Assembly (NCBI RefSeq): GCF_006345805.1
Contig: NC_043007.1
Location: forward strand, 17,484,001 to 17,548,000
Reading direction: 5' to 3'
Length of the DNA stretch: 64,000 bases
Source of the DNA: Octopus sinensis
Lineage: Eukaryota
The notes below the pieces were generated by a model. That model saw nothing but the letters and a program-made list of their open reading frames with translations, ran no database searches and was not told the DNA's origin. The translations under genes were made by a program, and so were the position numbers. Within the stretch, counting starts at the first letter, position 1, and every line of letters starts with the position of its first letter. Positions 10,419 to 58,939 of the stretch are shown piece by piece.

Positions 10419-10448
10419 TATATATGTATATGTATGTATGTATGTATG

Positions 10449-10480
<32 letters not shown>

Positions 10481-10797: not shown

Positions 10798-10885
10798 TTG
10801 TTGATTATTTGATATCTTTTGCTTAAAAGTTATATATTAATTTTTGTATTATTGATATCCATCATTTCATTTGTGTATGTAAGAT

Positions 10886-31413: not shown

Positions 31414-31787
31414 ACATAGCCACAACACCTTACAAGTAACTGTGTGTACTGAAATATTTTTTAATTTATTGCCCATTATGTGAATTCAGAAAGTTACTAA
31501 TTCCAGTTAATGTTTACAGTCAACAATAAAATTCCTGTTGCTTTATTTTATTTATTACTACATAAGTATATTTAGAAGCGATTCTCTTATGTCTTTCATT
31601 CTAAAGTGAATGATGGGAATACTAGTAACTCCACCTGTGACCATCCCATTTATGTATATGATGTATCTAGGACTTCATTATCATATGTGTTCTTTGGGGT
31701 TTTTTTTAAGGTAGTAAGGTATGGTTTTAAGGGAGATTCGGTGCTATTTATGGCAAAGCAAGGCATATAGGTGCTTTCTCATCAGTT

Positions 31788-32381
<594 letters not shown>

Positions 32382-36969: not shown

Positions 36970-37093
36970 TTAACTGGCACTGGTTAAACACTTGAACACA
37001 AGCATCGCAGTGAAGCGCTGAAAAAAAAGAAAAGAAGGGAGGTAACCCCGTACTACTAGACAGTTGTTAGTTGCCGAGGAACATCGTGGAAGC

Positions 37094-37279
37094 ATGTTGT
37101 CCCGCAATCTTGTCGCAGGTTTCCTCTTCCTGGTTTGTTTATTAAATCTAATTAAGGCCGAAGCCGATGTGAAAGAACAGAGTTCGGAGGCAAAAGATAC
37201 AGCGGAAAAAGTCCAAGTAGACGATGAAAAAATTGAATATGCTCGGGGTTCAGTTTGCGGCTACTGTGAATATTGTAAG
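37094..37279 (+). CDS. HRC: HRC-like cysteine-rich ER-luminal protein, exon 1 of 5 (signal peptide, acidic linker, first CxxCxxC)
   Basis: MLSRNLVAGFLFLVCLLNLIKAEADVKEQSSEAKDTAEKVQVDDEKIEYARGSVCGYCEYCK; donor AAG|GTAGGT, phase 0; GSxCGYC matches the start of the HRC cysteine-rich domain as recalled. Confidence 0.9.
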
Positions 37280-39140
37280 GTAGGTGCGAACCAGGATCGA
37301 TAAAAGCTCTTTCCTTCACTTCGTTCTGTCTATCCTTCTATCTATCCATCTATCTATCCTATCTGTCCTATCTCGACAGGCTTTATCAATGAGTCGAGAT
37401 AAGGTCTATTTTAGTCTTGATTAGGTTTATTTTAGTCCAAACATCGCCCCCACCTCACCGCATTCCTTCAACCTGTCACTGATCCCATTTTTATTGATTC
37501 CCTGTAAATTCCGGAACTTCTTGCAAGTCGACACTGCAAGGTCTTGTCCAAACATAAAATGCGATTTACCTAAAACTGTGCAACATTACTTCACGATATC
37601 ATAATCTATTTATATAAGAATTTGTAATTTTATTTCTCAACACACTTAACTGATAACTTGATATTTCCCCCCGAAATACCATTCTGTATTTATAAGAACT
37701 GGTTAAGCATGGAAAACAACTTTTCTGTTTAAAATTTATTGAAATCACGACTGTGTTTTATTTTTTTCCTTTAAAAACTTAACTGTCCGGACGATAGAAT
37801 CAGAACAGTTCTGTTTTCTATATAAGGAATTGGTCAGTTCATTCATTTGAGGTTTTGGAAATGGCGATGACGGTTGAGAACGCCTCTGTTGTTGTCTGTG
37901 TTTTATTTAGTTTAATACAACCATCTCTTGTGTTCGAATTCCGCCATCATCAATTTGGTACCGATGAAACAATTTACCAATAATATCTTGCAGTCGATGG
38001 AATAACTACAAGTCATACTATTCTAATCGATTAAAGTACCAATAATACACCGCTGGATCGATGAAATTAAGCACCTCTAATATTGCAGGCTTCTCTGTCG
38101 ATCAATTTGATTGTGTGCCTAGTATAAAAAAAAGAAATCAGAAACCCCATAAATCTATATATTTGAATATGTTACAAAATGCTGTAGATCTCCTTATTCC
38201 GTTGATAAATTCTACCATGTTCCTCGTTTTTAAATTCCTTTTGTAAATGTCAATTCCTGATTACTTGGCCTTTTATGAAATCTCTCTGCGAATCTTGAAA
38301 TTCCTCAACATCTTTCAGGCTTGTAAATTCCTTTAGAATCTTCCCATGCCTCTTTATAAACTTCATCTTATCACATACAGATCCCCCCATATCTAACCTA
38401 ATCTCGCCATAAATCTTGTTATCAGCTCTGACCAAAAATTCGGTAATCTACTTTTCAAACTATGACGCTCCTTAAAATAATTGGAAACAATCTGTAACGA
38501 CTTCAATCGGTTCTTTTTCACCTGTGTGCAACAAGATAAGAAGAACGTCAAACAATATTTACAAGTTTACTTAAGCTGTCATAACATACATATATATATA
38601 TACACATGCATATATTCATTTAACACATCTAATCCATTTATGTCCCGATACTTCCTACTCATTTTTTTTATTTATGTTTCAATTAACGTTGACATTTGTT
38701 AAATTACTTTTCGCGCATGTGTGTGTGTCCTAAATAAATTCCTATAGACCGGATGTTTCATGCATTACGTTATGTAAGCGATGATGATGGTGCCTGGTAA
38801 TAATAATAATCGTCGCGGCGGTGATTGATGACAACTATCATCATCGATATTGCGATATTGGCTTTTTTGGCTGTTCCTGGGTGAACGCCGCAGTGCAGAA
38901 GAAAGACGCACCCTTCGAACTATGCCGGCGACCTAATTTCGACCACCGATTACGGGAACACAGTATTTCTATTCACAGGCTTTGGGGCGTCGTGCAGGAC
39001 GATCAACTTATTTCAATACCCTTCATTCACTCTTAAACTTTAAGAAACTAATATGGATTGTCTTACAGTGTTTAGTTATTGCCTTTTTACGTTCTAAGTT
39101 CAAATCCCGACGAAGCCAACTTTGATTTCCGACTAATACT

Positions 39141-39364
39141 TATTTCTTTACTACCCACAAGGGGCTAAACACAGAGAGGACAAACAAGGACAGACAAACA
39201 GATTATATCGACCCCGGTACATAACTGGTTCTTATTTAATTGACCCCGAAAGGATGAGATGCAAAGTCGACCTCGGCGGAATTTGAACTCAGAACGTAGC
39301 GGCAGACAAAATACCGCTAAGCATTTCGCCCGGCGTGCTAACGTTTCTGCCAGCTCGCCGCCTT
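39141..39364 (-). mobile_element. Family A SINE
   Basis: Reverse-complement match; flanking near-duplication TTCCG(A/C)CTAATACT. Confidence 0.85.
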
Positions 39365-39741
39365 TTTCCGCCTAATACTGGTCAAGTACTGTGGTTGATT
39401 ATAATTGAATTTACCCCTTCAGATCGAGACCTTGTGTCTGTTAGAAATCAATATTACGATTTTATTTATTTGCGTTGGTTTCAAATTCCGCCAATATTGA
39501 CTGAGACTTGAATTCTTACTTGAGTCTATAAAATAAGTACTAGTATCGCTTTGATCGATTACCCTCTACCTCAAGAAGTTGTGATCAAGTTAGAAGTCAT
39601 CATTATTTATCAGTTAGACTCTTGCTCATAAAAAATAATCTAAATCATTGATTTTCAACTGGGACCCATATAAGATTTTATTATGTGCAATAGATTGGTT
39701 ATACTTTTACAAAACACTATTTTTTTTTTTATACAATTCCT

Positions 39742-40147
39742 GGATCTTTTTGGTTTGAATGGCAGTTTTTAACATAATTTCTAGATAACTAAAAAATTTT
39801 TAACTTCGTATACTGGTAGAATGTGTTTATAAAACATCTTTTTCTCTTGGCTTTCTTGAGAAAATTCTATAGTTTGTAAGATATTTGTTGTTTTTTTTTC
39901 TGCAATTTCAACCAATCAATGACCTCCATTGAGGTAAAAAAAAAACATTCTGTGCCATATGAATATGTCCCTCGTTTAAGAAACAGATTGGGTTTATTCA
40001 CATTTGTGAAGAAAAAAAGATACCCTTCCCCCCACCCTAACCCTAAAACTGATTGAAATGCAATAGATCGATACTAGGGTCATAATTATGGGTGACAATT
40101 TCATATGACACTGCTAGAAAAAACTGCCATTCAAACCGAAAAGATCC
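39742..40147. mobile_element. Merlin-like MITE nested in a hAT-like MITE
   Basis: GGATC...GATCC TIRs; TSD CAATTCCT. Confidence 0.85.
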
Positions 40148-40874
40148 CAATTCCTGATAATATATAATTATAAAAACATAGTAAGATCTTTTTACATATA
40201 GTAAATAGTTGTGAGGGTCCAGTAGTGTAAAATAGGAATCAAAGAAATCCATTGGCAAACAAATGGTTGAGAACCATTGATCTAAATGATTTCTGTCCAT
40301 TTCTGATTTATACACTCACCAAACCCTTACATGCAGTGTGATAAACAGCACAATACTGCAATGTGATCAAAACATGTGGAATAATATTGGCTTCAACATA
40401 GCTTTCAACCATCTTTCAACCGTTCATTGATTTATGCGTGGAGAGAGAGCATTACTGCTGTCGTTTCTGTCTTTAACATTAACTACCCCCATTCCACCAC
40501 CCCAAAAAAAAAACTTCCAATATTAGACGAGGGTTGGAGAGAATGATTCACATTCTTTAATCAAGTAGCTATTGCCTCTTGCAAAATAAATTCTTTGAGC
40601 AAATATAACTAGTTTAAGTTGAAATTATCAAGGCTCTGGCATGGCTGTATGGCAAAATGTTTACCTCCCAACCACATGGTTCCAGGTTCAGTCCTACTGC
40701 ATGGCAACTTGGGCAAGTGTCTTCTACTATAGTTTTGGGCTGACCAAAGCCTTGTGAGTGGATTTCATAGACGGAAACTGGAAAAAACTTGTCATATATA
40801 TATATATTATCATCATCATTTAGTATCTGCCTTCCATGCTGGCATGGGTTGGACTATATATGTATATATATGAT

Positions 40875-41143
40875 GATGCTTCATCTTGACAAATGATAGC
40901 CATCCCATCAACACACACACACCATGCCCCATCACACAGCACAATCACTCCGTTGATGAGCCCTTAGATGACTTTTAAGACCAGCTGCTGACTGACAGAG
41001 TTTAAAACACAAGTGACAGATATTATTCAAGTTTCTTCTGTATCTTTGCCCTTTGGAATCTGATTCTGAAGGAATGTTTTTGCGAACTAGCATGTCTTTT
41101 AAGTTCAGATATTGCCATACAAATTTGGTGATGCATGGCACAA

Positions 41144-41145
<2 letters not shown>
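40875..41145 (-). mobile_element. RTE-like LINE 3' fragment with C2H2 finger
   Basis: NNICHLCFKLCQSAAGLKSHLRAH on the minus strand followed by an (ATC)n-like tail. Confidence 0.6.
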
Positions 41146-41194
<49 letters not shown>

Positions 41195-41353
41195 CTACAC
41201 TCGCGGAGTGGTTGGCGTTAGGAAGGGCATCCAGCTGTAGAAACACTGCCAGATCAGACTGGAGCCTGGTGCAGCCCCTAGCTTCCCAGGCCCCGGTTGA
41301 ACCGTCCAACCCGTGCTAGCACGGAAAATGGACGTTAAACGATGATGATGATG

Positions 41354-41378
<25 letters not shown>

Positions 41379-41384
<6 letters not shown>

Positions 41385-41554
41385 CTGAAATGTATAGTAT
41401 TAAATATCCATCACGGCTGGTCCTACCAATCGGTTTTGCATAAGGAATACAATGGAGTGTTAGGTAACAAACTGATTCCTTTGTGTTCTTTACACGAAAG
41501 CAGTTGGTGAGACCAGCCCTGGAGGATATATAATACTATACATTTTGGATAATA
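41379..41554. repeat. Imperfect ~75-bp-arm inverted repeat between TA microsatellites
   Basis: TATTATCTGAAATGTATAGTATT... pairs with ...TAATACTATACATTTTGGATAATA. Confidence 0.75.
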
Positions 41555-41810
41555 TTACCTATTCTACTACGTTTCCATCTTTTCCCTGACTTATGGTCTC
41601 TTAGACGTCTCATATAGACACACACGCACACACATATATATAGGAGTAGCTGTGTGGGAAGTAGCTTGCTTACGAACTACATGGTTCTGGGTTCAGTCCC
41701 ACTGCGTGGCACCTTGGGCAAATGTCTTCTACTATAGCCTCGAACCAACCAAAGCCTTGTGAGTGGATTTCGTAGACGGAAACTGGAAGAAGCCCGTCAT
41801 ATATATATAT

Positions 41811-41850
<40 letters not shown>

Positions 41851-43888
41851 CTTAATAGTTTGGCAAAAGAGACTGATAGAATAAGTACTAGGCTTACAAA
41901 GAATAAGTCCCTGGGTCGATTTGATTCGACTAAAGGCAGTGCTCCAGCATGGCCGCAGTCAAATGACTGAAACAAGTAAGAGAATAAAATGCTACATCAT
42001 TGACAACTAGATTTCTTTAACAGCATGACATAGAGAAAATATTCTCACTTTTTAATGATTACTTCTTTCCAAAATATAATGATAATACAGATAGATTAGA
42101 GACAAGGCTTTCAATTTATAGGTGAGGCAGTTGTTTGAAATTCATGTACTTTATTGATTTCTTCTCAAAAAAAAGTTAAAAAGAAAACAAATATAATGCC
42201 AAATTTGATGAAATCCATCTAAACAAACAGCTTTTTCTATACCACTTGGTGTACAAACTTATACATTTATTTACTAATACTTGCACCATTTTTTTCAGCG
42301 TGCACACTGAAATCTGTGTCATGCTAATGAGGTCATAATAAGATTAGGACATGTCCAGAGTTGACTCACATTTTTCCCAATTTACCTAAAATAATATTAG
42401 TCGCTGACTAATGTTGTTTGGGTGTTGTTTTCCTCCATGCATAATTATTTCAAGTTACCATTTTTAATGGTCCTTGCATTATGTGTGTTAACACCATGGT
42501 GTGAATTTACAATTAAGAAAGATAAAGCTAATTACAGGGATTACTGAAATCAGCTTTTTTTTTTTATTTAATTAAAAAACCAATGAAAGTAGTTTCTGAA
42601 ATTGGAAGATTATTATTATTTGGGTCAATAAGGCAGTAAGCTGGTAGAATCGTTGGCACACCAGGCAAAATGCTTCGTGGCATTTCATCTGTCGTCTTTG
42701 CATTCTGAGTTCAAATTACATCATGGCTGACTTTTCCTTTCATTCCTTTGGGGTCAATAAAACAAGTACCTGTAATCGACTAGTCCCCACCTTCCAAAAA
42801 TTTCAGGCCTTGTGCCTATAGTAGAAAGGATTATTATTTTGGCAGTTTTACTTTATAAAACATGTTTGTATTGGTGTACCATATTAATGGGGTTTTAATT
42901 TTTGGCATCAAAATATTGCCAAAGTTGTCAATATCGTCAAAATTACTGACAGATAATAAACTGGAAGTATTGATATAAAGTAGTTCACCATCACTTGGCA
43001 TGTTGGATATCTTTAGTGGAATCCAGTTGTTGCCACAACACAGGCTAGAATACCTTTCTCCTTCTTGACTAAAAGATGAAAACAAAATTAGGATAATTCT
43101 AAATATTCATGTTTTTGTAACAACTTTTGTGTAATTCATGGCACTGTATCATCTCTAATTAGAAAGTTTAATGTAGATCTGGTTTTTTTTTTTGTTTTTT
43201 TACTAACATTTTGGGTTTTTGAAGAAGTATTTTAACTGTAGAATTAACTTGAATTATTTCAATTCCATGCATATTTACAAATATCGGTGTGTGTGTGTGT
43301 GTGTGTATTACACTTCTCTAATAAGAAAGAACTTTTTCTTACTCCAGCAGTTTAATTCTAAGTTCTCAATGGTATCAACTATTAATCTCTATCCGTGTGT
43401 GTGTGAGAGAGAAAGAAAGAAAGAACATAGTGTCATCTTTGTTGTCTTTTTCTATGTTGGCATAGAGATATTCACAACAATCCTTACTGTCTAAGTCACT
43501 TCTTATTTAGAATTACTGCTCCCTTAGACGGGTCAAGGACATCTCACTTGTATATTCTATTTTTCGCATAGTGTAATATGGCTGGATACTCTTCCTATTG
43601 CCAGTCACTTTACAAAATGTAGACAATGCATTTTATTGTGACTCCAGCACTAGTGGGGTTACCTTGCCCACAGTAAGGCTAATCTATGATGTCTCATTCT
43701 TGGCAGAAGTATAGTGAGTGACGAAAGAGAATTAGAACAAGGGAGAGATATAGATAAGAGGAAGACATAATGGAAGAGAAGCAGAATAAGAGAATGGTAG
43801 AAGAGAGAATGATAGACGACTACATGAAGATAGTTAGTAAGGAGATTTGTTAGAAAAATGTAAGGAGCAAACATTCTAAACTTGTTTG

Positions 43889-44309
43889 GGATCTTTTCAG
43901 TTTGAACGGCAGTTTTTAACGTAATTTCTAGGTAACTAAAAAATTTTAAACTTCGTATACTGGTAGAATGTGTTTATAAAACATCTTTTACTCTTGGCTA
44001 TATTGAGAAAATTCTATAGTTTGTAAGATATTTGTTGTTTTTTTTCTTCAATTTCTGCAATTTCAACCAATCAATGACGTCTATTCAGGTAAAAAAAAAC
44101 ATTCTGTGCCATATGAATATGTCCCTCATTTAAGAAACAGATTGGGTTTATTTACATTTGTGAAGAAAAAAAGATACCCTTCCCCCCCACCCCTAACCCA
44201 AATCCTTAAATAGATTGAAATGCAATAGATCGATACTAGGGTTATAATTATGGGTGACAATTTCATATGACACCGCTAGAAAAAACTGCCGTTCAAACCG
44301 AAAAGATCC
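43889..44309. mobile_element. Merlin-like MITE
   Basis: GGATC...GATCC TIRs; TSD CTTGTTTG. Confidence 0.85.
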
Positions 44310-44745
44310 CTTGTTTGATCTCAAAAAGTATTTATATTTTTACATCGGTACTCCTGTATGTTTTTGGGGGAAGACGTAAAAGAAACGTGCTTTTTTTAAC
44401 AACAGAATTTTTCTGTTTCTTATATGAGAGTAAGCTACACTTTCCTGAATCATATGTGTTCTGGATCAAATTCAAAACAATGCTTCTTTGTTTAATAGAT
44501 TACAAATGTCTGGGTGCCAAAGCCAACAGCTTTTCAATCTCATTGATTGAAATTGATATAATAATAATAAAAAAAAAAGGACCAAAAAAAAACTGGCAGT
44601 GGTAAATTTGGGAGAAGTAGGTTAAAGGTTGAAGTGTTCTACAATTGCTGGAGGAGAGATGATTGAGGTTGGGGTCAGTCTAGACAAAGATCGATATAAT
44701 AGATCTGCAGCTTATAGGTTTGATCTTTCAGTATTTACCAGTTAT

Positions 44746-44979
44746 AAGGTGGCTTGCTGGCAGAATCGTTAGCACGCCGGGTGAAATGCTAAGCGATATT
44801 TCGTCTTCCGTTACGTTCTGAGTTCAAATTCTGCCGAGGTCGATTTTGCCTTTCATCCTTTCGGGGTCGATAAATTAAGTACCAGTTATGCACTGGGGTC
44901 AATATAATCGACTTAATCCGTTTGTCTGTCCTTGTTTGTCCCCTTTGTGTTTAGTCCCTTGTGGGTAGTAAAGAAATAA
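44746..44979 (+). mobile_element. Family A SINE
   Basis: Full-length; flanking duplication AGTATTTACCAGTTAT. Confidence 0.85.
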
Positions 44980-45249
44980 GTATTTACCAGTTATGAGTGT
45001 CAAAATGCCTGCTTGTTTGCTGTAGTCATTTTGTGTAATCAGAGTAGGTCTTGGAGAGAAAATACATAACTGCTATAGTGGTGAGCAACAGTGAATGTTT
45101 AATAAGTAAACCACTCCTTTATATGAGCTATCCTCATTCAGAGGTCTGGAAACATAAGGTACACAGTCATTTAGTGGTTGAATTCTACCTGTACACCCTA
45201 TTTTATCCCCAGCTATATTTGAGAAACTAAGTGCTAAGTTCTTGTTTAA

Positions 45250-45635
45250 CCCTTTAGCATTTAAACCAGCCATATCCAGCCCAAATATATTACCTATTTT
45301 ATGTCAAAAGTAACAAGATCTGGCCTCTCACACCTGTGCTACAATGTCATTCTAAAATAAACAATCACATCGTTAAAATCTCAAAGCTCTGAGGTAACAC
45401 ATGATTAATTCAAAAACAGGTGGCACGTAAAAAGCACCCACTACACTCTCAGAGTGGTTGGCATTAGGAAGGGCATCCAGCTGTAGAAACTCTGCCAGAT
45501 CAAGATTGGAACCTGGTGCAGCCATCTGGTTCGCCAGTCCTCAGTCAAATCGTCCAACCCATGCTAGCATGGAAAGCGGACGTTAAACGATGATGTTGAT
45601 GATGCATTTGACAGAATAATCTGAATACTAAAGGG
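45250..45635. mobile_element. piggyBac-like MITE interrupted by a family C SINE 3' part (about 45417-45603)
   Basis: TTAA|CCCTTTAG...CTAAAGGG|TTAA with the SINE inside. Confidence 0.8.
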
Positions 45636-47050
45636 TTAATATTAGGTTAGCCCTGATCAAGTAGACTTGTGATCAAAGGTATTCCAGATATGATCATCCC
45701 CTCTTTTCCCTTCACACAAACCCAGGACCATATTCGCCATCATGTCTCATCATCATCATCATCGTTTAATGTCTGCTTTCCATGGGTTGGATGGTTTGAC
45801 ATGAAGGTGGCTAGCAGGGAGCTGTCCTGACTCCAACTGTCTGTTGAGGCAAGGTTTCTACAGCTGGATGCCCTTTCTAGTACCAACCACTTAACAGAGT
45901 ATGATAGGTGCTTTCTACATGTCACCAGTATGACTGCATTTATGCTGCACTGGCACGGGTGCATTAACGCAGCACCAGCACAGGTGCTTTTTAAGTGGAA
46001 CCAGACTTGTCTGAAATGGTAGGGTATGGTTTTAGTAGCTGCTATTTCTAGCTAGTTAAACAACAAGTAGGCAGCTTGTGGATTTGATACAGCGAGGTGG
46101 TCAAGTTTCGAGTGTGTTTGACTGACTTACGAAAAAAAAAACAATTAAAAACAATTGAGATGTCATTGGAAATATTACAATAACTTCATGCAGAATTTCC
46201 TATCGCTGCTGCAGTAATTGGTCAATGTTATCTATGCCCATGATCAAAAAGAACCTATATTGACTCCCTTAAGAAGTTTTAAACTTTTCCTGCATGGTAA
46301 AAGTCTAATATCACTTAGTAGGTTGTCTCTCATGAAATCAAACTATGATTTTGTTATCAGTTCTAATAAATATATATACTGCTGAAACTAACTTGATACA
46401 GGATTGAACTGAAGTCTTTTATAAATCTATCTTTTTTTTAGTGTGGAGGTGTGTGTATAATTCAAAATATAATTAACCAAGGGAAATCACTCAAGTGGAC
46501 CATTGGCTTGATTTTAAGTAAATAAGTTATGGACTGATATACTGAATGGTGCATGCTAAAGATCCTTCCCAATTCAAATCTTCCTCTTAGTTGAGTAAAA
46601 TATAAATAAATAAACTAGTGGGCATGGTTGTGTGATAAGAAGCTTGCTTCCCAACCACATGATTTCGGGTTCAGTCCCACTGCATGGCACTTTTGGCAAT
46701 TATCTTCTATCAACCCAAGCCACCTGAGTAGATTTAGTAGACAGAACCTGAAAGACACCCATTGGATATATACATGCATGTGTGTCTTTGTATTTGTCAC
46801 CACCACCACCATTTGACAACCATTGTTGGTTTGTTGATGTCCCCATAACTTATCAGCTTGGCAACAGTGACTAATAGATTAAGTAACAGACTTTAAAATA
46901 TAAGTACTGGGGTTGGTTTGTTCAACTAAAACCCTTCAAAATGTTGCCCCAGCTTGGCCACATTTCCAATAACTGAAACAAAAGATAATTCTTAGCAGCT
47001 TGCAGAAAGAGGAAATAATTTTTAAAAATTGATTTCGCTAAATTTCACTA

Positions 47051-47455
47051 GGCATAGGAGTGGCTGTGTGGTAAGTAACTTGCTTACGAACCACATGGTT
47101 CCGGGTTCAGTCCCACTGCATGGCACCTTGGGCAAGTGTCTTCTACTATAGCCTCGGGCTGACCAAAGACTTGCGAGTGGATTTGGTAGAGGGAAACTGA
47201 AAGAAGCCCGTCGTGTATATGTATATATATGTGTGTGTGTGTTTATGTGTTTGTGTGTCTGTGTTTGTCCCCTCAACATCGCTTGACAACCGATGCTGGT
47301 ATGTTTATGTCCCTGTAACTTAGAAGTTCAGCAAAAGATACCGATAGAATAAGTACTAGGCTTACAAAGAATAATTCCTGGGGTCAATTTGTTCGACTCA
47401 AGGCGGTGCTCCAGCATGGCCACAGTCAAATGACTGAAACAAGTAAAAGAGTAAA
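47051..47455 (+). mobile_element. Family B SINE
   Basis: Full-length match to 4165-4555. Confidence 0.85.
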
Positions 47456-48015
47456 TTAATTGACATTCTTAGAAGAAGATTAAGATATATATGAGTTGGC
47501 TAACCGGGAGCTGTCCAAACTCCAACTGTCAGCTTATTTTATGGAGCTTTACAATGCTAAAATAAATTAAAATGCCTTGAAAAATGTAATGAAGTAAATT
47601 ATGTCAAGGTTTCCTGGAAGAAGTTTAAGAAAGACAGAAACTTTAAGAGATAACTTCTTACTGGGAAAATGTATGTATGTACACACACACATGTATGTAT
47701 GTACATGCATGCATATTTTTTCATCTGGCCTCATATTTTTTCTACTTTGTTTGTAACATCCCATACATAAAATATTGTGACAGCAGGTCTCTCTCTGGAT
47801 GACATTTAAGAATTATGATAGTCAAAGCTGTTTCATTGAATTTAAGACACGTGGCACCTTGGGCAAGTGTTTTCTGCTATAGCCTTTGGCTGACCAAAGC
47901 CTTGTGATTGATTTTGCTAGGCAGAAGTTTCTGTCATGTGTGTACATGTGGGTGTAAGTGCTTGTGCCTCCTAACAGAGAAGAGGGAACATGAAGCAGAG
48001 TGGCTGTTGGTTTAA

Positions 48016-48235
48016 CCCTTTAATGTTTAAACTGGCCATATCCAGCCCAAATATTCTACATCATTTATATTTGAACTAGCCATATCTAACCTCTCACACC
48101 TAACCTACATTGACATTCTAAAAATAAATATTCACATCATTGAAACCTCAAAGCTATGAGATAATGCAGGATTAATTCAAAACAATTTGAGTGAAAAAGC
48201 ATTACATTTAACAGAGTAATCTGAACATGAAAGGG
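48016..48235. mobile_element. piggyBac-like MITE
   Basis: TTAA|CCCTTT...AAAGGG|TTAA. Confidence 0.8.
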
Positions 48236-48436
48236 TTAAACTGCTGTGTGGTTAAAAAGCTTGCTTCCCAATCATGTGTTCTTGGGTTCTGTCCCACTAC
48301 ACAGCACCTTGGGTAAACAACTTCTACTATAACCTCGGGTTGACCAAAGCCTTGTGAGTGGATTTGCTAGACCAAAACTGAAAGAAACCTGTCATATATG
48401 TGTATATTTATGTTTTTGTGTGCTTTTATCTTCTTT

Positions 48437-48817
48437 TAGCACTCCGTCGGTTACGACGATGAGGGTTCCGGTTGATCCGAATCAACGGAACAGCCTGCTC
48501 GTGAAATTAACGTGTAAGTGGCTGAGCACTCCACAGACTCGTGTACCCTTAACGCAGTTCTCGGGGATATTCAGCGTGACACAGAGAGTGACAAGGCCAG
48601 CCCTTTGAAATACAGGTACAACAGACACAGGAAGTAAGAGTGAGAGAAAGTTGTGGTGAAAGAGTACAGCAGGGATCACCACCATCCCCTGCCGGAGCCT
48701 TGTGGAGCTTTAGGTGTTTTCGCTCAATAAACACTCACAACGCCCGGTCTGGGAATCGAAACCGCGATCCTATGATCGCAAGTCCACTGCCCTAACCACT
48801 GGGCCATTGCGCCTCCA
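48437..48817 (-). mobile_element. Family D SINE, tail type 2
   Basis: Same tRNA head as 25470, different 3' half (shared with the SINE at about 29722-29933). Confidence 0.8.
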
Positions 48818-48831
48818 CAAACAATGTGCTA

Positions 48832-48951
48832 TGCTTACTGCACCTAGGTTTTCCCAAGCGGTCACCCATCTAAGTATTGACTAGGCTCGACGTTGCTTAA
48901 CTTCGGTGATCAGACGAGAACCGGTGCTTTCAATGTGATATGGCCGTAAGC
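48832..48951 (-). rRNA. 5S rRNA copy, full length, probably a pseudogene or retro-copy
   Basis: Minus strand GCTTACGGCCATATCACATTGAAAGCACCGGTTCTCGTCTGATCACCGAAGTTAAGCAACGTCGAGCC...GATGGGTGACCGCTTGGGAA..GGTGCAGTAAGCA; terminal helix GCTTAC/GTAAGC; single copy, no oligo-T terminator. Confidence 0.9.
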
Positions 48952-49987
48952 CTTTGTCTAGATATCACATAATAGTTGTAAATAAGTATCATTGTCTTCC
49001 AAGTTGAAGTTGCTCGTTTCCAGTTTTTCAAGTAAAACATGTTTTCCTATGGGAAAAGTATTGCCTTGTTTGGAAAACAGATGAGGGTTGGCAACAGGAA
49101 GGGCATTCAGCTGTAGAATAATCTGCCTCGACAAATTCTGTCCATCGTTCAGACAGCAAACTGGTAGATTCATTAGCATACAAGACAAAATTCTTAGTGG
49201 CATTTCTTCTGGCTTTCCATTCTGAGTTCAGATTCTACCAAGGTTGATTTTTGCCTGTCATCCTTTCAAGGATGCTAAGTTACAGGGACACAAACACACC
49301 AGCATCGGTTGTTAAGCGATGTTGAGGGAACAAACACAGACTCATAAACATACACACACATACATATATATATATATTATATATATATACATACGACGGG
49401 CTTCTTTCAGTTTCCATCTACCAAATCCACTCACAAGGCTTTGGTCAGCCTGAGGCTATAGTAGAAGACACTTGCCCAGGTGCCAAACAGTGGGAATGAA
49501 CCCGGAACCATGTGGTTGGTAAGCAAGCTACTTACCACACAACCGCTCCTGCGCCTGCATTATAGTTGTATTATTTTAAAGAATGTTGTTGCATAAGGCT
49601 GGACCAATGCAAGAGGGTACAGGGTAAACTACAAAAGGAAAAGAAAACAGGAAAAAATTGCAGTTTAACCTTGTATTTCTATATTTTGGGGTGAAGTATT
49701 ATTTGTTTCACTTTTCCTGATAAAATTGGAGACCAGTGCTACTTTACAATTGAATAAGTATCACGAAGCTGAGAGATCAAACTGTAAGAAGTACTTGGTC
49801 TGATAATTCATAAACAAGCAATTGTAATTTATAGATTCATTCCACCCTAATTGTAATTCTATTTCATAAATGAAAGAAACACCAGCATTTCATGGTGGTG
49901 CCTCAACATGACTGCAGCTTTGAAACTGAAGCAAGTTGTAGAGTATCATAGGTGCTGGCATGGCTGTGTGGTAAGAAGTTTGCTTGT

Positions 49988-50220
49988 AAGGCGGTGAGGT
50001 GGCAAAAATGTTAGCAGGCCGGTCAAAATGCTTACTGGTATTTTGTCTGTCTTTACGTTCTGAGTTCAAATTCCGCCAAGGTTGACTTTGCCTTTCATCC
50101 TTTCGGGGTCGATAAATTAAGTACCAGTTACGCACTGGGATCGATGTAATCGATTTAATCAGTTTGTCTGTCCTTGTTTGTTCCCTCTACGTTTAGCCCC
50201 TTGTGGGCAATAAAGAAATA
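49988..50220 (+). mobile_element. Family A SINE nested in a family B SINE
   Basis: Duplication TAAGAAGTTTGCTTG on both sides; host SINE resumes afterwards. Confidence 0.85.
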
Positions 50221-51299
50221 AGAAGTTTGCTTGCCAAGCACATGGTTCTGGCACCTTGGGCAAGTGTCTTCTACCATAGCCTTGGGCTGATCAAAGCCTT
50301 GCGAATGGATTTGATTTACAGAAACTGAAAGAAGCCTGTTGTGTGTGTGTTTGTCTGTTTATCCCCCACTACCATTTGACTACTGGTGCTGGTGTGTTTA
50401 CATCCCCATAGCTTAGCAGTTCAGCAAAACAGACCTAGAGCATAAGTACCAGCCTCAGAAAAATACAAGTGCTGGAGTCAATTTGTTTGACTAAAATTCT
50501 TCAAGGCACTGCCCAAGCATGACAGTAGTCAACTAAAACAAATGAAAAATGAAAAATTTCTGTGTGAGAAGATACTTTATTAATCTAAGTATTGTTGTTT
50601 GATGACAATGATCTGACTTAAAATTACTACAAAGAGTTTATTTTTAAGTTCTGATGTATATCTCTCAGTATCTGTTTGTGAGGGTTGTCTTTCAAACATT
50701 ATTGTTTTCATATTTAATGGATCTGTTAGTTTTGACATTGAATTTTCAGTTGTTCAACCAACTGAACGATCTACTCTTTAGATTAATGTTTAATATGTAA
50801 GGTTGAACTGTTGATAGATATGTATGGCTTTAAGGTAGCTATCAGGCTGAATCAAAATTTTGAACTAATAGAACTCTCTATTCAGTCCCTCAGCCTGCTA
50901 GAAACAGCAGTCAATTCTCTTTCATTTAATGCCATACTATTGTGGAAAGGATCCTTTGAAAAGTTTAATAAGATCTACATAAAAGACAATATGGCCACAG
51001 TTGGAATGTCTTTGATTATAGCCTGCTCACTCAGGGCTGACTTGGGACTAGATAATAGCTAATAATAATAATAAGCAGCTTTCTCAATTATAGTATAGAT
51101 AATCCTTATAATCATCAAATTAGTGTTCATCATTTTATCATCTAGTTATTGATAGATGTGCCTACCATACAACATATCCTTACATGACCTAATTTTTGTC
51201 CCCTAATCTATGACTCATCATCCTCAGATTGAATTTCACTATTTATTCAGTTTTCCGATGGCATTAGTCTCCTCTTTGGAGAGCTCATAGCACGTTTTT

Positions 51300-51996
51300 C
51301 ATTGAATATTCATTACCTATTCACATCACGTCTATCATCAGAATAATTGTCTCACTTGCTCACATCAGCTTATATCTAATACTTAACCACTCTATCAGTC
51401 CATTTGTATTCCACCTTTCATGCTGGTTGCTTCATTTCCCCCCCCCCCCCAGATTCCATACATCTTCCACGCTTGCTTTCTGTATCTCACCTCCATGTTA
51501 TCAATGCTTTTTAAATGAATCATGTAATCTTCTGCATGAAAAGAGAAAGTTTGTTGCCAATAGAGGAAAAGAGATTTTTCACTTCTTACTCTAGTATACC
51601 ATCCTTTTGCTATATCCACTAATGTATAAACTTCAATTCACAAGTGCACCAACAAGTGACTCTTGTATATCCATCACATCTGAAATCCTGTTTTTTGTTT
51701 TTTTATTAGCTTCATAGAAATCTCACAGCAGTTTGGTATAGTCAAAGTCCTTACATAAAATATGACCACTTCACATGTTGCACGAATGTTTTGAGTTTCT
51801 TTGGTTTTTCTCACGTTGACCTTTAAATATTAGGTCATTCTTCTGAGTAGGGAACTTTTTATGCAACATTTTGACTGTTTTCAGTATAAGGTTATAAGTA
51901 TGCAGACATTTCCCAAACTGGCCAGTCCTGAATTCCTGTGCCATAGTTTCAAGGACTGCAGTGAATAGAATAGAGAACAACCTTCATGAACACCCC
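51300..51996 (-). mobile_element. Degenerate RTE-like LINE reverse transcriptase fragment
   Basis: Minus strand GVHEG..LFTAVLETMAQEFRTG resembles the RTE motif preceding YADD; many disablements; left boundary approximate. Confidence 0.45.
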
Positions 51997-52214
51997 CTTA
52001 ACCCTTTGGCATTTAAACCAGCCATATCCAGCCAAAATATTCTACTTGTTTTATCTTCAAAATTGTCATATCTGGCCTTTCACACCTACCCTACAAAGTC
52101 ATTTTGAAAATAAACAACCTCATCATCAAAATCTGAAAGCTATGAAGTAATGCGTGATTAATTCAAAATAATGTGAAATCATAAGCATTATATTTGAAAC
52201 AGTAATCTGAATAC

Positions 52215-52631
52215 CGACGTCTGGCAGATGACTTGGCAGACACTCATAAAATTATTAACCATCTTACTAACAATAACTCTGAGCACCTTACCTGTCTAGC
52301 ACCTGTGGACATATTTACAAAGTCAGAAAACAGCACAGCTCCCATGACTTTTGGAAACATTTTTTCACGCTAAGAGTTGCTGAAGCATGGAACAAACTGC
52401 TGGCATCAGTTATTTGTTGTTGGAGTACCGCATCCTTCAAACCTTCCATGCTTTCTGAGATTCGCCAACGCTACACCTGATTTTTCTCCCCTCCATACAC
52501 ACGCAAGCATGTATCTGACTCATACATTGTTCGCTTTCCAGACATTTGTACATTACTGCATATGCTTTATATGCACTTTTGATAAGTTGTGGTGCACCTG
52601 AGCACTGTATACAATAATTCCATTATTATTT
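52215..52631 (+). mobile_element. CR1/L2-group LINE 3' end
   Basis: Colinear with 29108-29529. Confidence 0.85.
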
Positions 52632-52987
52632 ATATTTCTCACTGGATTAACTGCGAACATAACTTTGCTTACACCACCCTCATTAATTTCCCTTCTACAA
52701 ATGTCATTTGTAAGCCTAGGAGGACCATTCACAAAAATTTCTTAATGAAATATTTTGCACTTTCTGTTACTGGCTCTGTGCCTAGACAAACAAAAATTGT
52801 TTTCATATTGAATTATATCAGTTCACTACATTTTAATCAAAATCTTTGTATTCAGTATTGCTGATAGTAAACAACTTTACTTGTATCAACTATGTTTCGT
52901 CGAGTAAGTAAAAACTTAAAAACAGAATTTTTGCATTATCTTAGCTATGTGAAATGAAATAAAATCCCGATTCTATTTCTGTTTCAG

Positions 52988-53059
52988 TTCTGCAGCCTCT
53001 GTGATAAAGACTGCCCCTGTTTAGTATCTCCTCAGAAACCCAATTGCGAAATGTGTAAA
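52988..53059 (+). CDS. HRC: HRC-like protein, exon 2 of 5
   Basis: TTTCAG|TTC...AAA|GTAAGT; FCSLCDKDCPCLVSPQKPNCEMCK, 72 nt, phase 0-0. Confidence 0.9.
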
Positions 53060-53966: not shown

Positions 53967-54021
53967 TATTGTAAATACTGCTATCTTTGTTCAGCTGTCT
54001 GTGACACCTTCTGTAAACCTG
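53967..54021 (+). CDS. HRC: HRC-like protein, exon 3 of 5
   Basis: TTCCAG|TAT...CCTG|GTAAGA; YCKYCYLCSAVCDTFCKP, 55 nt, phase 0-1. Confidence 0.9.
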
Positions 54022-54444
54022 GTAAGATATTTTCACCTTTTCATTCTGAAGTATGATTAAGGGTGGTTTATTAAAAGTTTTCTTAATTAATATTGACAGC
54101 CTTTCAGAAACGAAGGGCATCACTATTCTGTTGTGTTTGGGGGAGAGTCATTTTCTTTTTTGTGCCTTATAATTTAACACACTCACCGGTAAAATTTCCA
54201 CTTTTTTCTTATTTCTAGTTTCCTAAAATTTTCGTTGCGTCTTGCATCCTTTTCAATAGTTTTGACTCACTATGTTTTTTGTCTACTCTGATGATGATAA
54301 AGTTAACCATAAGTTGATGGATATCTCTGTGATCCAGGGGAAGATTTGAGCCCTCATACTAATATAGAACACTCACTGTGTAGTGCTCCTACTTATAACA
54401 CTGATGGGATATAAGTAATGTTTTTATTGAGTATATGTCTTAGA

Positions 54445-54906
54445 CTGGCATCCGTTGCTAGTGGAGCGCTAAGAGTACCATACGAGTGAAATCGTTGCCA
54501 GAGCAACAAGCTGGCCTTCATGCCGATGGCACGTTAAGCACACCATTCAAGTGTGATCGTTACCGCGTCACCTTACTAGCACTTGTGCTGGTGGCATGTG
54601 AAATATTCGAGCGAGGTCGTCGCCAGTGCCGCTGGACTGGCTCCTGTGCAGGTGGCACGTAAAAAGCACCATTTGGGTGTGGCCGTTGCCAGTACCACCA
54701 AACTGGCCCCCGTACTGGTGGCACATAAAAGCACCCACTACACTCTCGGAGTGGTTGGCGTTAGTAAGGGCATCCAGCTGTAGAAACTCTGCCAGATCAG
54801 ATTGGAGTCTGGTGCAGCCATCTGGTTTGCCAGTCCTCAGTCAAATCGTCCAACCCATGCTAGCATGGAAAGCAGACGTTAAATGATGATGATGATGATG
54901 ATGATG
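54445..54906 (+). mobile_element. Family C SINE
   Basis: Tandem units, Meta-like core, (GAT)n tail. Confidence 0.8.
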
Positions 54907-55757
54907 AACTTCAGTAAGCTGAAGTTCTATTGTGCCTTGTAATAAGTAATTGACCATTACAGAACAAATGTGCTCATTTAACATAAGATTGTATAAGTAC
55001 TTGAAATTTTTGACGATAAGAAATTTTAGACATGTAATTTCTACTTTGCCTGCTGCTGTAATCCGAGATAAATATAAACCATTCTCTTGTTTGATGAGAT
55101 GTTGATAGAAAGAAAGATGTTCTATTATAAAAGTCATAATTATTTTGATTGCTTTTTCATAATAACTTTTGTCTAATTCACTTGTTGCTTAGATTACTGC
55201 ATGTAATCTTTATAACTTTACAAAAGACGAAACAGTAATATCCTGTAGCTTCTTGAAAATCTTGCCTGGACAAGTTCGAAATTAACGTTAATCAAACTTA
55301 ATTATCTCAAAATATGCTGTAAGATAATTATATTCCAGACTAAGTGGTGAAGGTTGTCAGATATGTGTCTCCTTGGAATGTGAAATGATAATTTGTGGAC
55401 TTAAAAGAAATTACTTTATACTACTAACATGATAGTCTGTGTAATAATACCAGTTTGACTTAATGGTTCCATGGCTGGTGTTTGCTGAAATGCATTCAAC
55501 TGTGAATTCTTTCCTTGAAATGCTGAAATTATCTTGTTCATTCAATTCATTGCCAATGCAAATAGAGATAAACTGGATTTCTACTGAGCTGAGAATTAAG
55601 TTCCATGTCAATAGTTGATGACTTCCTTTATTAGAAACGATGCTCACAGATTGTAGTTTTTACTTATAAATATACGAAGGAATAACATTGTAATCTTAGT
55701 CTTATATATTAGTATATATAAGTACTGATGGAAATAGCTTTTAATATAACTGTATAA

Positions 55758-56050
55758 GGAGGCGCAATGGCCCAGTGGTTAGGGCAGTAGACTCGCGGTC
55801 GGAGGATCGCGGTTTTGATTCCCAAACCGGTCGTTGTGTGTGTTTATTGAGTGAAAACACCTAAAGCTCCACGAGGCTCCGGCAGGGGGTGCTGGCGACC
55901 CCTGTTGTACTATTTCGCCACAACTTTCTCTCACTCTCTCTTCCTGTTTATTGAATAACACTGCGATGGACTGGCGTCCCGTCCAGCTGGGGGGAACACA
56001 TATGCCACAGAAGATGGGCCCATGAGCCTGGCTAGGCTTGAAAAGGATGA
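55758..56050 (+). mobile_element. Family D SINE, tail type 3 with V-SINE-like domain
   Basis: Family D head followed by CTGCGATGGACTGGCGTCCCGTCCAG (55961-55986). Confidence 0.75.
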
Positions 56051-56074
56051 TGTTACGTTTTATAACTTTATAAG

Positions 56075-56305
56075 GTATACTGTGCTACCTCCTAAGTGTC
56101 GTAAAGCACTTTACAGTACCAGTTTCTTCCCTCACACCTCTGAACTTTGGAATTCCCTTCCACAGTGTTGTTTTCCTCTTCAATATGACCTCCAGTTTTT
56201 TTAAGCCTAATGTACATCGTCACCTATTGCCTTCTGTCTAGCGTCCATTTTATTCTAGTAGCTCTTAGGTTTTCAGTGGTCTAAGGACCTTGTAACAAGT
56301 GGATG
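56075..56305 (+). mobile_element. CR1 (Zenon-like) LINE 3' end
   Basis: YSTSFFPHTSELWNSLPQCCFPLQYDLQFF motif typical of the ORF2 C-terminus. Confidence 0.65.
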
Positions 56306-56600
56306 CTTTAAAGAAAAAGGTGGTGAGCTGACAGAATCGTTATTATACCAGGCAAAATGCTTAGCAGTATTTCATCTGTCTTTACTTAAAATACTACCAA
56401 GGTTGACTTTGCCTTCCATCCATTCAGGGTCAGTGAAATAAATACCAGTTGAGCATTGGGGTCAATATAATCAACTTAGCCCCTCCCCTGAAATTGCTGG
56501 CTTTGTGTCAAAATTTGAAGCCAATATAAATATATAAAGAAATAATATTATAATCCTTGTCATATATTTTTACTGGTATCATTTCTGTATTTTTTCTCAG

Positions 56601-56637
56601 GTGGATATGTTGATAAAGTATCAGCTGCTATCATCAG
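56601..56637 (+). CDS. HRC: HRC-like protein, exon 4 of 5
   Basis: TTCTCAG|GT...AG|GTAAAT; (G)GYVDKVSAAII(S), 37 nt, phase 1-2. Confidence 0.88.
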
Positions 56638-57050
56638 GTAAATATTTTGCATTTAATTTATTTTAATGAACACAAATTGTTGAGTGGTGGCACCACCTGC
56701 TCCCTCTTTTTAGAGTAATACATAAGAGTGTTTTGTCTTACTTTCCCTTCTTTTTTTTATTCTGATGGATTCAGAGCATTTCTGAGTTATTCATTTATGT
56801 TACCTGTGACCCATTCAGCCACCCAACCCCACACCTCCATTAACTCTAAATTTCTCATAGATTTGTCAATTGCCTCATTATCTCAATGATCAACTGTTAA
56901 TTATCAGTAGCACTGTACCATATTAAATATAGAAATGTCATTCAAAGGATTATTTACTTAAATTCAGTGGAATACATCCAATGGTTTTCAAAATTAGAAA
57001 TATCATTATTTCTAATTCTCTCTAAAGGAGACTACAGCAGCGGTACTGGA

Positions 57051-57353
57051 TATTAACAGTTATCGCCAAGCTAATATGGCAGTCCAGGAAAATAGGACGA
57101 ATGCTGCCATTGATTGGCTCCAAGAGGCCATCGCCTCTAGGTAAATAATCCTTCGAACATTCGGTCGAAACTAGTCTGTGGATGCCAGACCAGCAAGGGG
57201 AAGTTGCTGACCTCCCCTGTTCGAAGGTTATAATGGACACAGGTTTGTGTGTCACATAGCTAGTTAGAGGTGATGGCCTCTTGAAGCTAATCAATGGCAG
57301 CATTCGTCCTATTTTTCTGGACTGCCATATTAGCTTGGCAATAACTATTAATA
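57051..57353. repeat. Inverted repeat with 89-bp arms (57051-57139 / 57265-57353) in intron 4
   Basis: Arms are near-perfect reverse complements; spacer holds GAAACTAGTC and a second short IR (CCTTCGAACA / TGTTCGAAGG). Confidence 0.85.
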
Positions 57354-57555
57354 CTATACCATATTCTTTTCCTTAAATCTTTACACCAGCACTTATACCA
57401 GATATCCATTGCTCTTAACAGTTAAGGATTTATGGTAAAATAAACTATTACAATCTGAGTCCACCTTGCCCACCTCCACTGTGGTTATCATCACAATTGA
57501 CAAGCATACAAAAATAAATTGAATAATATCCAGAGTGCACAGTATTTTCTTTAGC

Positions 57556-57783
57556 TGGTGAGCTGGCAGAATCGTTAGCACGCCGGGTGAAATGCTTAGT
57601 GGTATTTCGTCTGCCGCTACATTCTGAGTTCAAATTCTGCCGAGGTCGACTTTGCTTTCATCCTTTCAGGGTCGATAAATTAAGTACCAGTTACGCACTG
57701 GGGTCGATGTAATCAACTTAATCTCTTTGTCTGTCCTTGTTTGTCCTCTCTATGTGTAGTTCCTTGTGGGCAATAAAGAAATA
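57556..57783 (+). mobile_element. Family A SINE
   Basis: Flanking duplication AGTATTTTCTTTAGCT. Confidence 0.85.
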
Positions 57784-58299
57784 AGTATTTTCTTTAGCTA
57801 GGTAAAGGCATAATATATCTGAAAGGGTTCTGTGGAATGGGCCTGCTTGTATGCCATAGGATTGCCGATTCATAGCTACCTCGGGGTTACATAAGTTTTT
57901 TGCTATTTTTTTTTTATCATTATTCCATAGGATCTCATTGTTTAATAGCATTAATTCAATCATTACATATTTACTACAAGGGATGCTGGAACACATCATA
58001 AACCTGAAATAGATCCTCCTCCCACACTTTTCAAAGATCATCTCCACTGACCTCACCTGGAAACCTTAATTTCATAACATTTTCCAACAGTGAGTGCTTC
58101 AATGAGATATAGATTTTCTTAGAAGGCCAAGAAGTATTTGTTGCTTCAAGTTTCTTATTTTAGCCATGTAGCTTCTCTAAAGCAAGGAACCTGCTCTGTT
58201 CTGTTCCTTCTTTTCATACCTAAATTTCTCATCTCCTGATTCAAAGCCGCCTTCCTCTACTGTAGTCTCACACAGTCAAGGGGTATCTTAGTGTTGCAA

Positions 58300-58552
58300 G
58301 ACACATCAATCAAAAAATCGTAAAAAATAGGGATTTTCGTAGAAAGAAAGCACCTTTTTGATGTAAATAATTTTTGGTGTTAACATGGTCTGATTTGAAT
58401 TTTTTCTTCTACGGAAGGAAGAGCAAGCCTTCTTCTATCATACTCTCAATTCTGGTCAACTTGTGCCGCAGGGTCTTGGAGGAGATAGTGTTAGTTGAAG
58501 GCTACCAAACCTACCATACACAGACAACTTCAGCTTTATATATATAGAGAGA
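58300..58552 (+). mobile_element. Helitron-like non-autonomous 3' fragment
   Basis: Ends ACACAGACAACTTCAGCTTTATATATATAGAGA, a terminus typical of short Helitron-derived repeats; left boundary approximate. Confidence 0.4.
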
Positions 58553-58851
58553 TAATTCTTTCAAAGTGCTGAATTATGATCAAAGGTATTCCAGTTGTAA
58601 TTAACCATCTTATGTTTTTATATCTGCAACTACACAGTACAATGTTGTTGTTGTTTTTATTTAAGAGAGGAGGCTCTGATCGGAGGGAGACTTGGTTGTT
58701 ATATGAAATTAGTAGTAAAACGGTTTTTCATTTTTTTTATTTCGTAGTTGAAAATTATCCAAAAGTTTATTAAGTTATTCCATGGTTGAAAAAACAAATA
58801 CATATAAACTGAAATTATCAATATTTTTTCTCTTTTTCTTTTTTCTTCCAG

Positions 58852-58939
58852 TGCATTGCCATTCCATGACACCAAGGAAATTAACAAAGATATTCACTCA
58901 ATGAAGAAGTGGATTGACAAAACTAAAGAAGAACTTTAA
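58852..58939 (+). CDS. HRC: HRC-like protein, exon 5 of 5, ending in KEEL
   Basis: Long polypyrimidine tract, CCAG|T; (S)ALPFHDTKEINKDIHSMKKWIDKTKEEL* in the phase required by exon 4. Confidence 0.88.

What the first reader, a model, noticed from the sequence alone, without database searches (positions are those of the whole stretch)
37094..58939. Minimal 145-aa 'HRC without the histidines': signal peptide + 14-Cys domain + KEEL
Seen: five phase-compatible GT-AG exons (438 nt), mostly invisible to the ORF track, give CGYCEYCKFCSLCDKDCPC-x8-CEMCKYCKYCYLCSAVCDTFCKPGGYVD and end in KEEL. Known (recalled): vertebrate HRC ends in a 14-Cys domain (GSLCGYCSFC...CYLCPLVCETVCAPGSYVD) after long His/acidic repeats; KEEL is a KDEL-type retrieval signal. 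Inference: this is the ancestral core, an ER-retained CxxC-repeat protein that may bind Zn/Cu or act in redox, metallothionein-like but luminal. Automated annotation may label it HRC-like while its function is probably uncharacterised.
Basis: partly seen in the sequence, partly recalled or inferred. Interest (0 to 1): 0.72.

Follow-up and report, generated by a model that had tools for sequence, protein, structure and literature searches.

The report
Ancient histidine-free core of HRC
This octopus gene makes a 145-residue, histidine-poor relative of the heart-muscle calcium protein HRC; the same small cysteine-rich core occurs in sponges, amoebae and foraminifera, and its cysteines likely form a ladder of disulfide bonds rather than the metal site long suggested.

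Summary
Five GT-AG exons (438 nt) give a 145-aa protein identical to RefSeq XP_029643130.1 (Octopus sinensis), already annotated as HRC. Spliced contigs join exon 1 straight to exon 2, so there is no His-rich insert, and the gene is single-copy. It is homologous to the C-terminal 14-Cys domain of vertebrate HRC but lacks the His/acid repeats that define HRC.

The short form (signal peptide, 14 Cys, KDEL-type end) occurs in molluscs, annelids, cnidarians and a sponge, and outside animals (Pelomyxa, Ammonia). The core therefore predates muscle; vertebrate rows have acid/His-rich N-termini and no KDEL-type end.

Of 127 full domains, 8 lose exactly two Cys, always a mirror pair (3+12 in seven, 2+13 in one), and none of 18 replacements is His, Asp or Glu. 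With a predicted helical hairpin, this favours nested disulfides over metallothionein-like binding, but it may rest on only two events. No Pfam family, solved relative or fold match was found. Function is inferred, not shown.

Verdict: an annotated gene and a new variant of a known family, with a testable structural reading. Interest 0.5.

The parts
37035..37093 (+). 5' untranslated part of exon 1 (at least this far upstream)
   Evidence: contig of run X13 begins at 37035 and continues into the coding exon (table 8); contigs do not show the true start
37094..37279 (+). coding exon 1 (aa 1-62): signal peptide, short acidic linker, Cys1-Cys3
   Evidence: joint to exon 2 in 4 of 4 runs
37094..37165 (+). 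predicted signal peptide (aa 1-24, cleavage site by eye; SignalP not available)
   Evidence: hydropathy up to 3.0 over aa 7-20; hydrophobic N-termini across relatives
37166..37255 (+). short acidic linker where vertebrate HRC carries its long His/acid repeats; 9 D/E in aa 24-54, no His, one S-x-E motif at aa 30
37280..52987 (+). intron 1, 15,708 nt, phase 0, repeat-rich, no His/acid-rich cassette exon found
   Evidence: 4 candidate in-frame cassettes, none above 10% H/D/E; skipped whole in 4 of 4 runs
52988..53059 (+). exon 2 (aa 63-86): Cys4-Cys9, with the conserved CPC motif (53012-53020) and the hairpin loop
   Evidence: Pro between Cys6 and Cys7 in 109 of 118 domains
53967..54021 (+). exon 3 (aa 87-104): Cys10-Cys14
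   Evidence: intron-3 joint in 8 of 8 runs
56601..56637 (+). exon 4 (aa 105-116): start of the predicted helix 107-118
58852..58939 (+). coding part of exon 5 (aa 117-145 and stop): last predicted helix 124-144; KEEL at 58925-58936
58940..59994 (+). 3' untranslated region, about 1.05 kb; ATTAAA at 59988-59993
   Evidence: contigs end at 59939, 59965, 59966 and 59994; sequence

Best explanation
The gene encodes the short ancestral form of the HRC family, predicted to be a small ER-lumen protein whose 14 cysteines likely form a ladder of nested disulfides that lock two antiparallel helices into a rigid surface that would bind other ER proteins. SHOWN: gene structure, splicing, single copy, homology to the HRC C-terminal domain, presence outside animals, mirror-pair Cys losses (3+12, 2+13). 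INFERRED: the signal peptide sends it into the ER; KEEL returns it from the Golgi, leakily; Cys pair i with 15-i (only 3-12 and 2-13 have direct support, the other five are extrapolated); the conserved Tyr/Phe before Cys2, 3, 4, 10 and 11 and the two C-terminal helices form a core and a docking face; it acts as a non-catalytic adaptor for a luminal loop of an ER membrane protein or a folding client. Vertebrates would then have kept this docking module (it binds triadin in mammals), lengthened the N-terminal linker into a Ca2+-binding His/acid region and dropped the KDEL-type end. My odds: short form is ancestral 0.9; ER-resident 0.85; Cys mostly in nested disulfides 0.7; mainly a binding module rather than a redox catalyst 0.5. 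The octopus partner is not identified.
For: Of 127 full domains among 194 stored proteins, 116 scored 14 Cys, 8 scored 12 and 3 scored 13; one of the three (P0108) has all 14 with wider spacing. All 8 double losses are mirror pairs: 7 of Cys3+Cys12 and 1 of Cys2+Cys13. Only 7 of 91 possible pairs are mirror pairs, so two independent events give about 0.006 by chance. None of the 18 replacements is His, Asp or Glu. Cys3-Cys12 is the top cross-arm covariation pair (0.31 against 0.17 for the next; same rows, not independent). AlphaFold2 on 55 sequences: mean pLDDT 79, 82-89 over the domain, helices 54-70 and 82-100 joined by a loop, then 107-118 and 124-144. The Cys6/7-Cys8 loop varies in length, as a hairpin turn would. 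Ends in xxEL/xxDL: 42 of 57 on the non-animal side, 36 of 54 invertebrate rows (17 more end KxYL), 0 of 7 vertebrate rows. Median D/E count before Cys1: 1, 10 and 20 in those groups. Human HRC binds triadin through its Cys-rich domain, aa 609-699 (PMC6171002 passages). Homology is more than Cys spacing: 57 of 57 non-animal and 7 of 7 vertebrate segments outscore all 100 Cys-fixed shuffles on an invertebrate profile (rows were first picked by similarity).
Against: The seven 3+12 losses need 3-5 changes on quick trees, but one origin is not rejected (AU p 0.38), so the signal may be only two events. Two rows lose a single Cys (P0111 Cys10, P0128 Cys4). Non-Cys columns show no antiparallel enrichment (8 of the top 20 pairs in register against 39% background, p 0.54). 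Cys2, 3, 12 and 13 could also be the four ligands of one cross-hairpin Zn site; mirror pairs are 2 of the 6 pairs among them, so the margin over that model is modest. [quoted passage not shown] No partner evidence exists for the octopus protein. Full-length mammalian HRC was not retrieved; several vertebrate rows are fragments or odd isoforms.
Confidence: 0.5

Rival explanations
1. Redox-active ER protein: most rungs are structural but the CPC at the turn, or an outer rung, opens and closes, so that it shuttles disulfides, buffers redox, or passes redox state to a partner.
For: CPC is nearly invariant (109 of 118) and recalls the catalytic CPC of Mia40 (recalled, no call). One relative, P0095, fuses the domain to two thioredoxin domains and ends KDEL. 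Vanabins have 18 Cys in 9 disulfides, some reversible, and act as reductases (PMC9486056 passages). Retention in the ER suits a redox role.
Against: The fusion is 1 of 127 full domains and was not repeated: 0 of the 80 best thioredoxin-like loci fetched with P0095 hold the Cys domain (80 of 454 were kept). No thioredoxin or other Pfam hit for the short proteins. P0095 itself has a changed CPC spacing.
Confidence: 0.22
2. Luminal metal-thiolate protein (first reader; classical reading of HRC): CxxC pairs bind Zn or Cu as a store or sensor in the secretory pathway.
For: Repeated CxxC spacing; the review's wording; a 1992 paper title reports Zn2+-binding sites in HRC (seen only in the reference list of PMC3429470; where the sites lie was not seen). 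Cys2/3/12/13 could make one tetrahedral site.
Against: 0 of 18 replacements are His/Asp/Glu; in all 8 double-loss rows the neighbouring pair is kept; 7 aromatic residues in the 48-aa domain, unlike metallothioneins (recalled feature); signal peptide points to an oxidising compartment (established); no metallothionein or zinc-finger Pfam hit.
Confidence: 0.18
3. Miniature Ca2+ buffer that works like mammalian HRC, as the annotation implies.
For: Orthology; acidic linker (9 D/E in 31 aa) and an S-x-E motif; longer acidic linkers in some invertebrate rows.
Against: The acidic repeats presumed to bind Ca2+ in HRC are absent; non-animal rows have a median of 1 D/E before Cys1, so buffering cannot be the conserved role.
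Confidence: 0.1

Closest known systems
[quoted passage not shown]
   Same: Signal peptide, 14-Cys CxxC cluster and following helix; significant similarity; vertebrate rows nest among animal rows; break points of partial vertebrate-type records fall at the octopus exon borders (indirect).
   Different: No His-rich repeats, no poly-Glu; 145 aa against about 700; extra C-terminal helix and KEEL, which the 7 vertebrate rows lack; relatives occur in organisms without muscle.
Vanabins (ascidian vanadium-binding proteins)
   Same: Small Cys-periodic proteins held by many disulfides, some redox-reversible (PMC9486056). An analogy for how it may work.
   Different: 18 Cys and 9 disulfides against 14; no sequence hit in PDB searches; not among listed fold rows.
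Mia40/CHCHD4 and twin-CX9C helical hairpins (recalled)
   Same: Disulfide-tied helical hairpin and a CPC motif.
   Different: CxxC periodicity instead of CX9C; CPC at the turn; ER signals instead of mitochondrial.
Metallothioneins (recalled features)
   Same: Small and Cys-rich.
   Different: Signal peptide, KEEL, many Tyr/Phe, predicted helices, mirror-pair Cys loss, no Pfam hit.

Membership tests
HRC (features from PMC6171002) | N-terminal signal sequence | tested here: met
   hydrophobic aa 7-20, conserved in relatives; by hydropathy only
HRC (features from PMC6171002) | tandem His-rich/acidic repeats | tested here: not met
   2 His in the protein, none before Cys1; exon 1 spliced directly to exon 2 in 4 of 4 runs
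HRC (features from PMC6171002) | poly-glutamate stretch | tested here: not met
   only scattered D/E, 9 in aa 24-54
HRC (features from PMC6171002) | cluster of 14 Cys in CxxC pattern near the C-terminus | tested here: met
HRC (features from PMC6171002) | high-capacity Ca2+ binding; binds triadin and SERCA2 in the SR lumen | not testable with these tools
   needs biochemistry
KDEL-receptor clients | signal peptide plus C-terminal KDEL-type tetrapeptide | tested here: met
   ends KEEL-stop; KEEL is a weaker retrieval motif; close relatives mostly end KDEL/RDEL. Location itself untested
Metallothionein | cytosolic, no signal peptide, few or no aromatic residues (recalled) | tested here: not met
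   signal peptide; 5 Tyr and 2 Phe in the domain
Metallothionein | metal-thiolate clusters | not testable with these tools
   indirect evidence against
Vanabin | 18 conserved Cys | tested here: not met
   14 Cys against 18
Vanabin | bow-shaped disulfide-tied helical fold | tested here: inconclusive
   no row stood out in the fold searches (best Z 3.5, rmsd 4.2, 79 aligned)
PDI/thioredoxin | thioredoxin domain with WCxxC | tested here: not met
   no Pfam hit for P0001; present only in the fused relative P0095
Twin-CX9C / Mia40 | two CX9C motifs (recalled) | tested here: not met
   spacings are 2-5 residues apart from the loop

The most novel reading that the evidence does not exclude
The HRC Cys domain is an undescribed disulfide-ladder fold that was already an ER-resident protein early in eukaryote history. 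Its CPC rung is a redox switch that couples luminal thiol state to an ER membrane partner, and cardiac HRC inherited this switch, which would make the HRC-triadin contact redox-gated.
Probability: 0.2. Interest if true: 0.78.

Novelty: new variant of a known kind. Interest (0 to 1): 0.5.

Why it matters
HRC is a cardiac calcium-handling protein tied to arrhythmia. Its triadin-binding Cys domain has no solved relative and no Pfam model in my searches, and is still described only as a possible heavy-metal site. A natural 120-residue mature form without the disordered repeats makes that question directly testable by disulfide mapping, metal analysis and structure determination. If the wide distribution holds, HRC is a muscle-specific elaboration of a general ER protein with an unknown job, and the database name 'histidine-rich calcium-binding' misleads for all the short members.

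Tried and rejected
Extra His/acid exon in intron 1: 4 candidate cassettes, none His/acid-rich; contigs skip the intron, though contigs drop rare variants and the joint tables were cut. No listed holder run is on record as RNA. Paralogues: 4 matches in the genome, all exons of this gene. Pfam: 0 families for P0001. PDB by sequence: nothing under E 0.3 (weak ferredoxin-type rows are CxxC chance hits). Fold searches: generic helical hairpins for the weak model (best Z 5.6, rmsd 5.7, 79 aligned), best Z 3.5 for the better model, no Foldseek match at E<=0.001 in PDB or viral libraries; this does not show a new fold. Atlas: one row at 0.83, an HRC-named cluster. Homodimer job: no answer, score 0.01. 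Prokaryote genomes: 159 pattern matches, none a relative. Second thioredoxin fusion: 0 of 80 loci. Covariation outside Cys columns: no register signal. The careful tree did not finish; quick trees were used. Neighbour genes: 142 non-repeat open frames (135 of the 315 that passed the filter, plus 7 picked) gave one sub-threshold Pfam hit, so no synteny test. No named row was an arthropod, nematode, fungus or land plant, but most rows are unnamed and the searches are limited, so loss is not shown. Earlier scan notes: none. Literature: ten searches listed no paper on short or non-vertebrate HRC or on its disulfides; the library lacks most subscription papers, including the original HRC biochemistry, and PMC3018531 was not held. 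No supplements were read.
Full report
1. Observation. Six-frame motif search placed the described pieces on the + strand. Splice signals gave five coding exons, 37094-37279, 52988-53059, 53967-54021, 56601-56637 and 58852-58939, total 438 nt, with GT..AG introns in phases 0, 0, 1, 2. The product is 145 aa with 14 Cys in residues 55-102, one more in the signal peptide, 2 His and a KEEL end. A search with exon 1 alone returned one protein, P0001, which is the same 145-aa sequence and is RefSeq XP_029643130.1 of Octopus sinensis, named HRC; O. bimaculoides and O. vulgaris have 145-aa cluster members. Contigs of public runs (guessed RNA, six study codes) show the intron-1 joint in 4 of 4 runs and the intron-3 joint in 8 of 8. 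In 3 of 4 runs of the second call, contig coordinates leave 90 letters between exons 2 and 5, as exons 3 and 4 require. The 3' UTR runs to about 59994. Intron 1 has no His/acid-rich cassette. The genome holds one copy.

2. What it is. Close relatives of 132-199 aa occur in bivalves, gastropods, annelids and cnidarians (20 rows). A search of 1.84 billion representatives gave 132 rows. Named ones include a sponge (Sycon), fishes, a newt, a tortoise and a whale HRC-like protein. A profile search named Pelomyxa schiedti (Amoebozoa) and Ammonia (Foraminifera) among 65 rows. P0001 aligns to the whale protein at 29/91 identity, pairwise E 5e-13. On a quick tree of 118 distinct domains (Cys2, 3, 12, 13 columns removed), 61 rows holding all the named animals fall on one side (SH-aLRT 96), with 7 vertebrate rows grouped inside (99). 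The other 57 rows hold the named protists; most of them are unnamed environmental sequences, so 'non-animal' is inferred from the tree. The tree has few columns, 58 of 115 inner branches are open, and it is unrooted. All 57 and all 7 outscore 100 Cys-fixed shuffles on an invertebrate profile, so the similarity is not Cys spacing alone. Intron 1 is conserved in position: 47 of 49 partial records break one residue after Cys3. Several vertebrate-type fragments begin or diverge at the octopus exon borders (indirect evidence from gene-prediction fragments).

The architecture changes in steps. The median distance from the start to Cys1 is 28, 54.5 and 80 aa, and the median D/E count in that stretch is 1, 10 and 20, for non-animal, invertebrate and vertebrate rows. 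Ends in xxEL/xxDL number 42 of 57, 36 of 54 (plus 17 KxYL) and 0 of 7. The vertebrate set is small, biased to short forms, and lacks full-length mammalian HRC. The simplest reading is that the short ER-retrieved form is ancestral and that the acid and His repeats were added in exon 1 later.

3. Mechanism. [quoted passage not shown] The family offers a natural test. Among 127 full domains, 116 scored all 14 Cys and one more (P0108) has them with wider spacing. Eight lack exactly two, and two lack one. The eight are seven cases of Cys3+Cys12 and one of Cys2+Cys13, both mirror pairs about the central loop. Replacements are A, T, R, K, V, W or Y, never H, D or E. AlphaFold2 with 55 sequences predicts two helical arms (54-70, 82-100) around a loop, with pLDDT 82-89 there, and two further helices. 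Together this points to an antiparallel hairpin tied by nested disulfides. Limits: the seven 3+12 rows need 3-5 changes on the trees, but a single origin is not rejected (p 0.38); non-Cys columns give no register signal; Cys2/3/12/13 could be one Zn site; and I could not read sulfur distances. I put nested disulfides at about 0.7.

For function I commit to a non-catalytic docking module in the ER lumen (0.5 overall), because the vertebrate domain is a binding domain and a stripe of Tyr/Phe is conserved from protists to octopus. A redox role (0.22) rests on the near-invariant CPC, one unreplicated thioredoxin fusion (P0095) and the vanabin analogy (PMC9486056, passages). Metal-thiolate binding is 0.18 and Ca2+ buffering 0.1. 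KEEL is a documented but leaky retrieval motif (PMC7506106, passages; a KEEL protein is listed as ER-located in PMC2140024, table passage, where it stayed in the ER even without the motif).

4. Comparison. It shares the signal peptide and Cys domain with HRC but fails two defining features, the His/acid repeats and the poly-Glu stretch. It is therefore the orthologous core, not a histidine-rich calcium-binding protein. It fails the recalled features of metallothioneins and twin-CX9C proteins and the Cys count of vanabins. No Pfam family, solved relative or clear fold match was found.

5. Novelty. The gene model and its name are in RefSeq, and many invertebrate relatives carry the same automatic name, so the gene is not new. 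Ten literature searches listed no study of the short forms, their range outside animals or their disulfides, but the library lacks most subscription papers. What I saw of other papers: PMC7581897 (passages, not relevant), PMC3048360 (one table row labels C. elegans ttm-4 as HRC; not tested), PMC3429470 (reference titles only), PMC9701806 (listing only; a potato gene with the same abbreviation, not tested). New here are the pre-animal range, the apparent loss of the KDEL-type end in vertebrates, and the paired-loss argument for a disulfide ladder.

6. Verdict. Real, expressed, annotated gene; new variant of a known kind; interest 0.5. It rises to about 0.78 if the domain proves to be a redox-gated ladder fold shared with cardiac HRC (probability 0.2).

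Noticed in passing
P0095 (stored protein, 373 aa): The 14-Cys domain is fused to two thioredoxin domains and ends KDEL; the only such fusion seen, and not repeated in 80 related loci.
   Followed up: partly
P0029 (stored protein, 132 aa): A relative with 8 Cys that lacks the stretch matching exon 2 (phase 0-0, skippable in frame): a possible exon-skipped isoform or a mis-prediction.
   Followed up: no
P0019, P0020, P0026, P0028, P0032, P0177, P0188: Cnidarian and sponge rows end in KEYL or KSYL rather than KDEL; possibly a lineage-specific retrieval variant.
   Followed up: no
P0192 (stored protein, 132 aa): A divergent secreted-looking protein with two purely 3-periodic runs of 7 Cys at its C-terminus and no KDEL; possibly a related or convergent ladder protein.
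   Followed up: no
P0111 (whale HRC-like, 279 aa): Cys10 replaced, divergent C-terminus and a long branch; may be a degenerate copy rather than the functional HRC.
   Followed up: no
window 1-37000 and introns: About 38% of the window is self-repeated, with long simple repeats near 10390-10830, 31100-31450 and 31720-32550; no other gene found by Pfam.
   Followed up: partly
window 37130, 58954, 59453-59456, 59850-59929: Letter differences in transcript contigs of some runs, one in coding exon 1 (37130 C>T); probably alleles or a related species.
   Followed up: no
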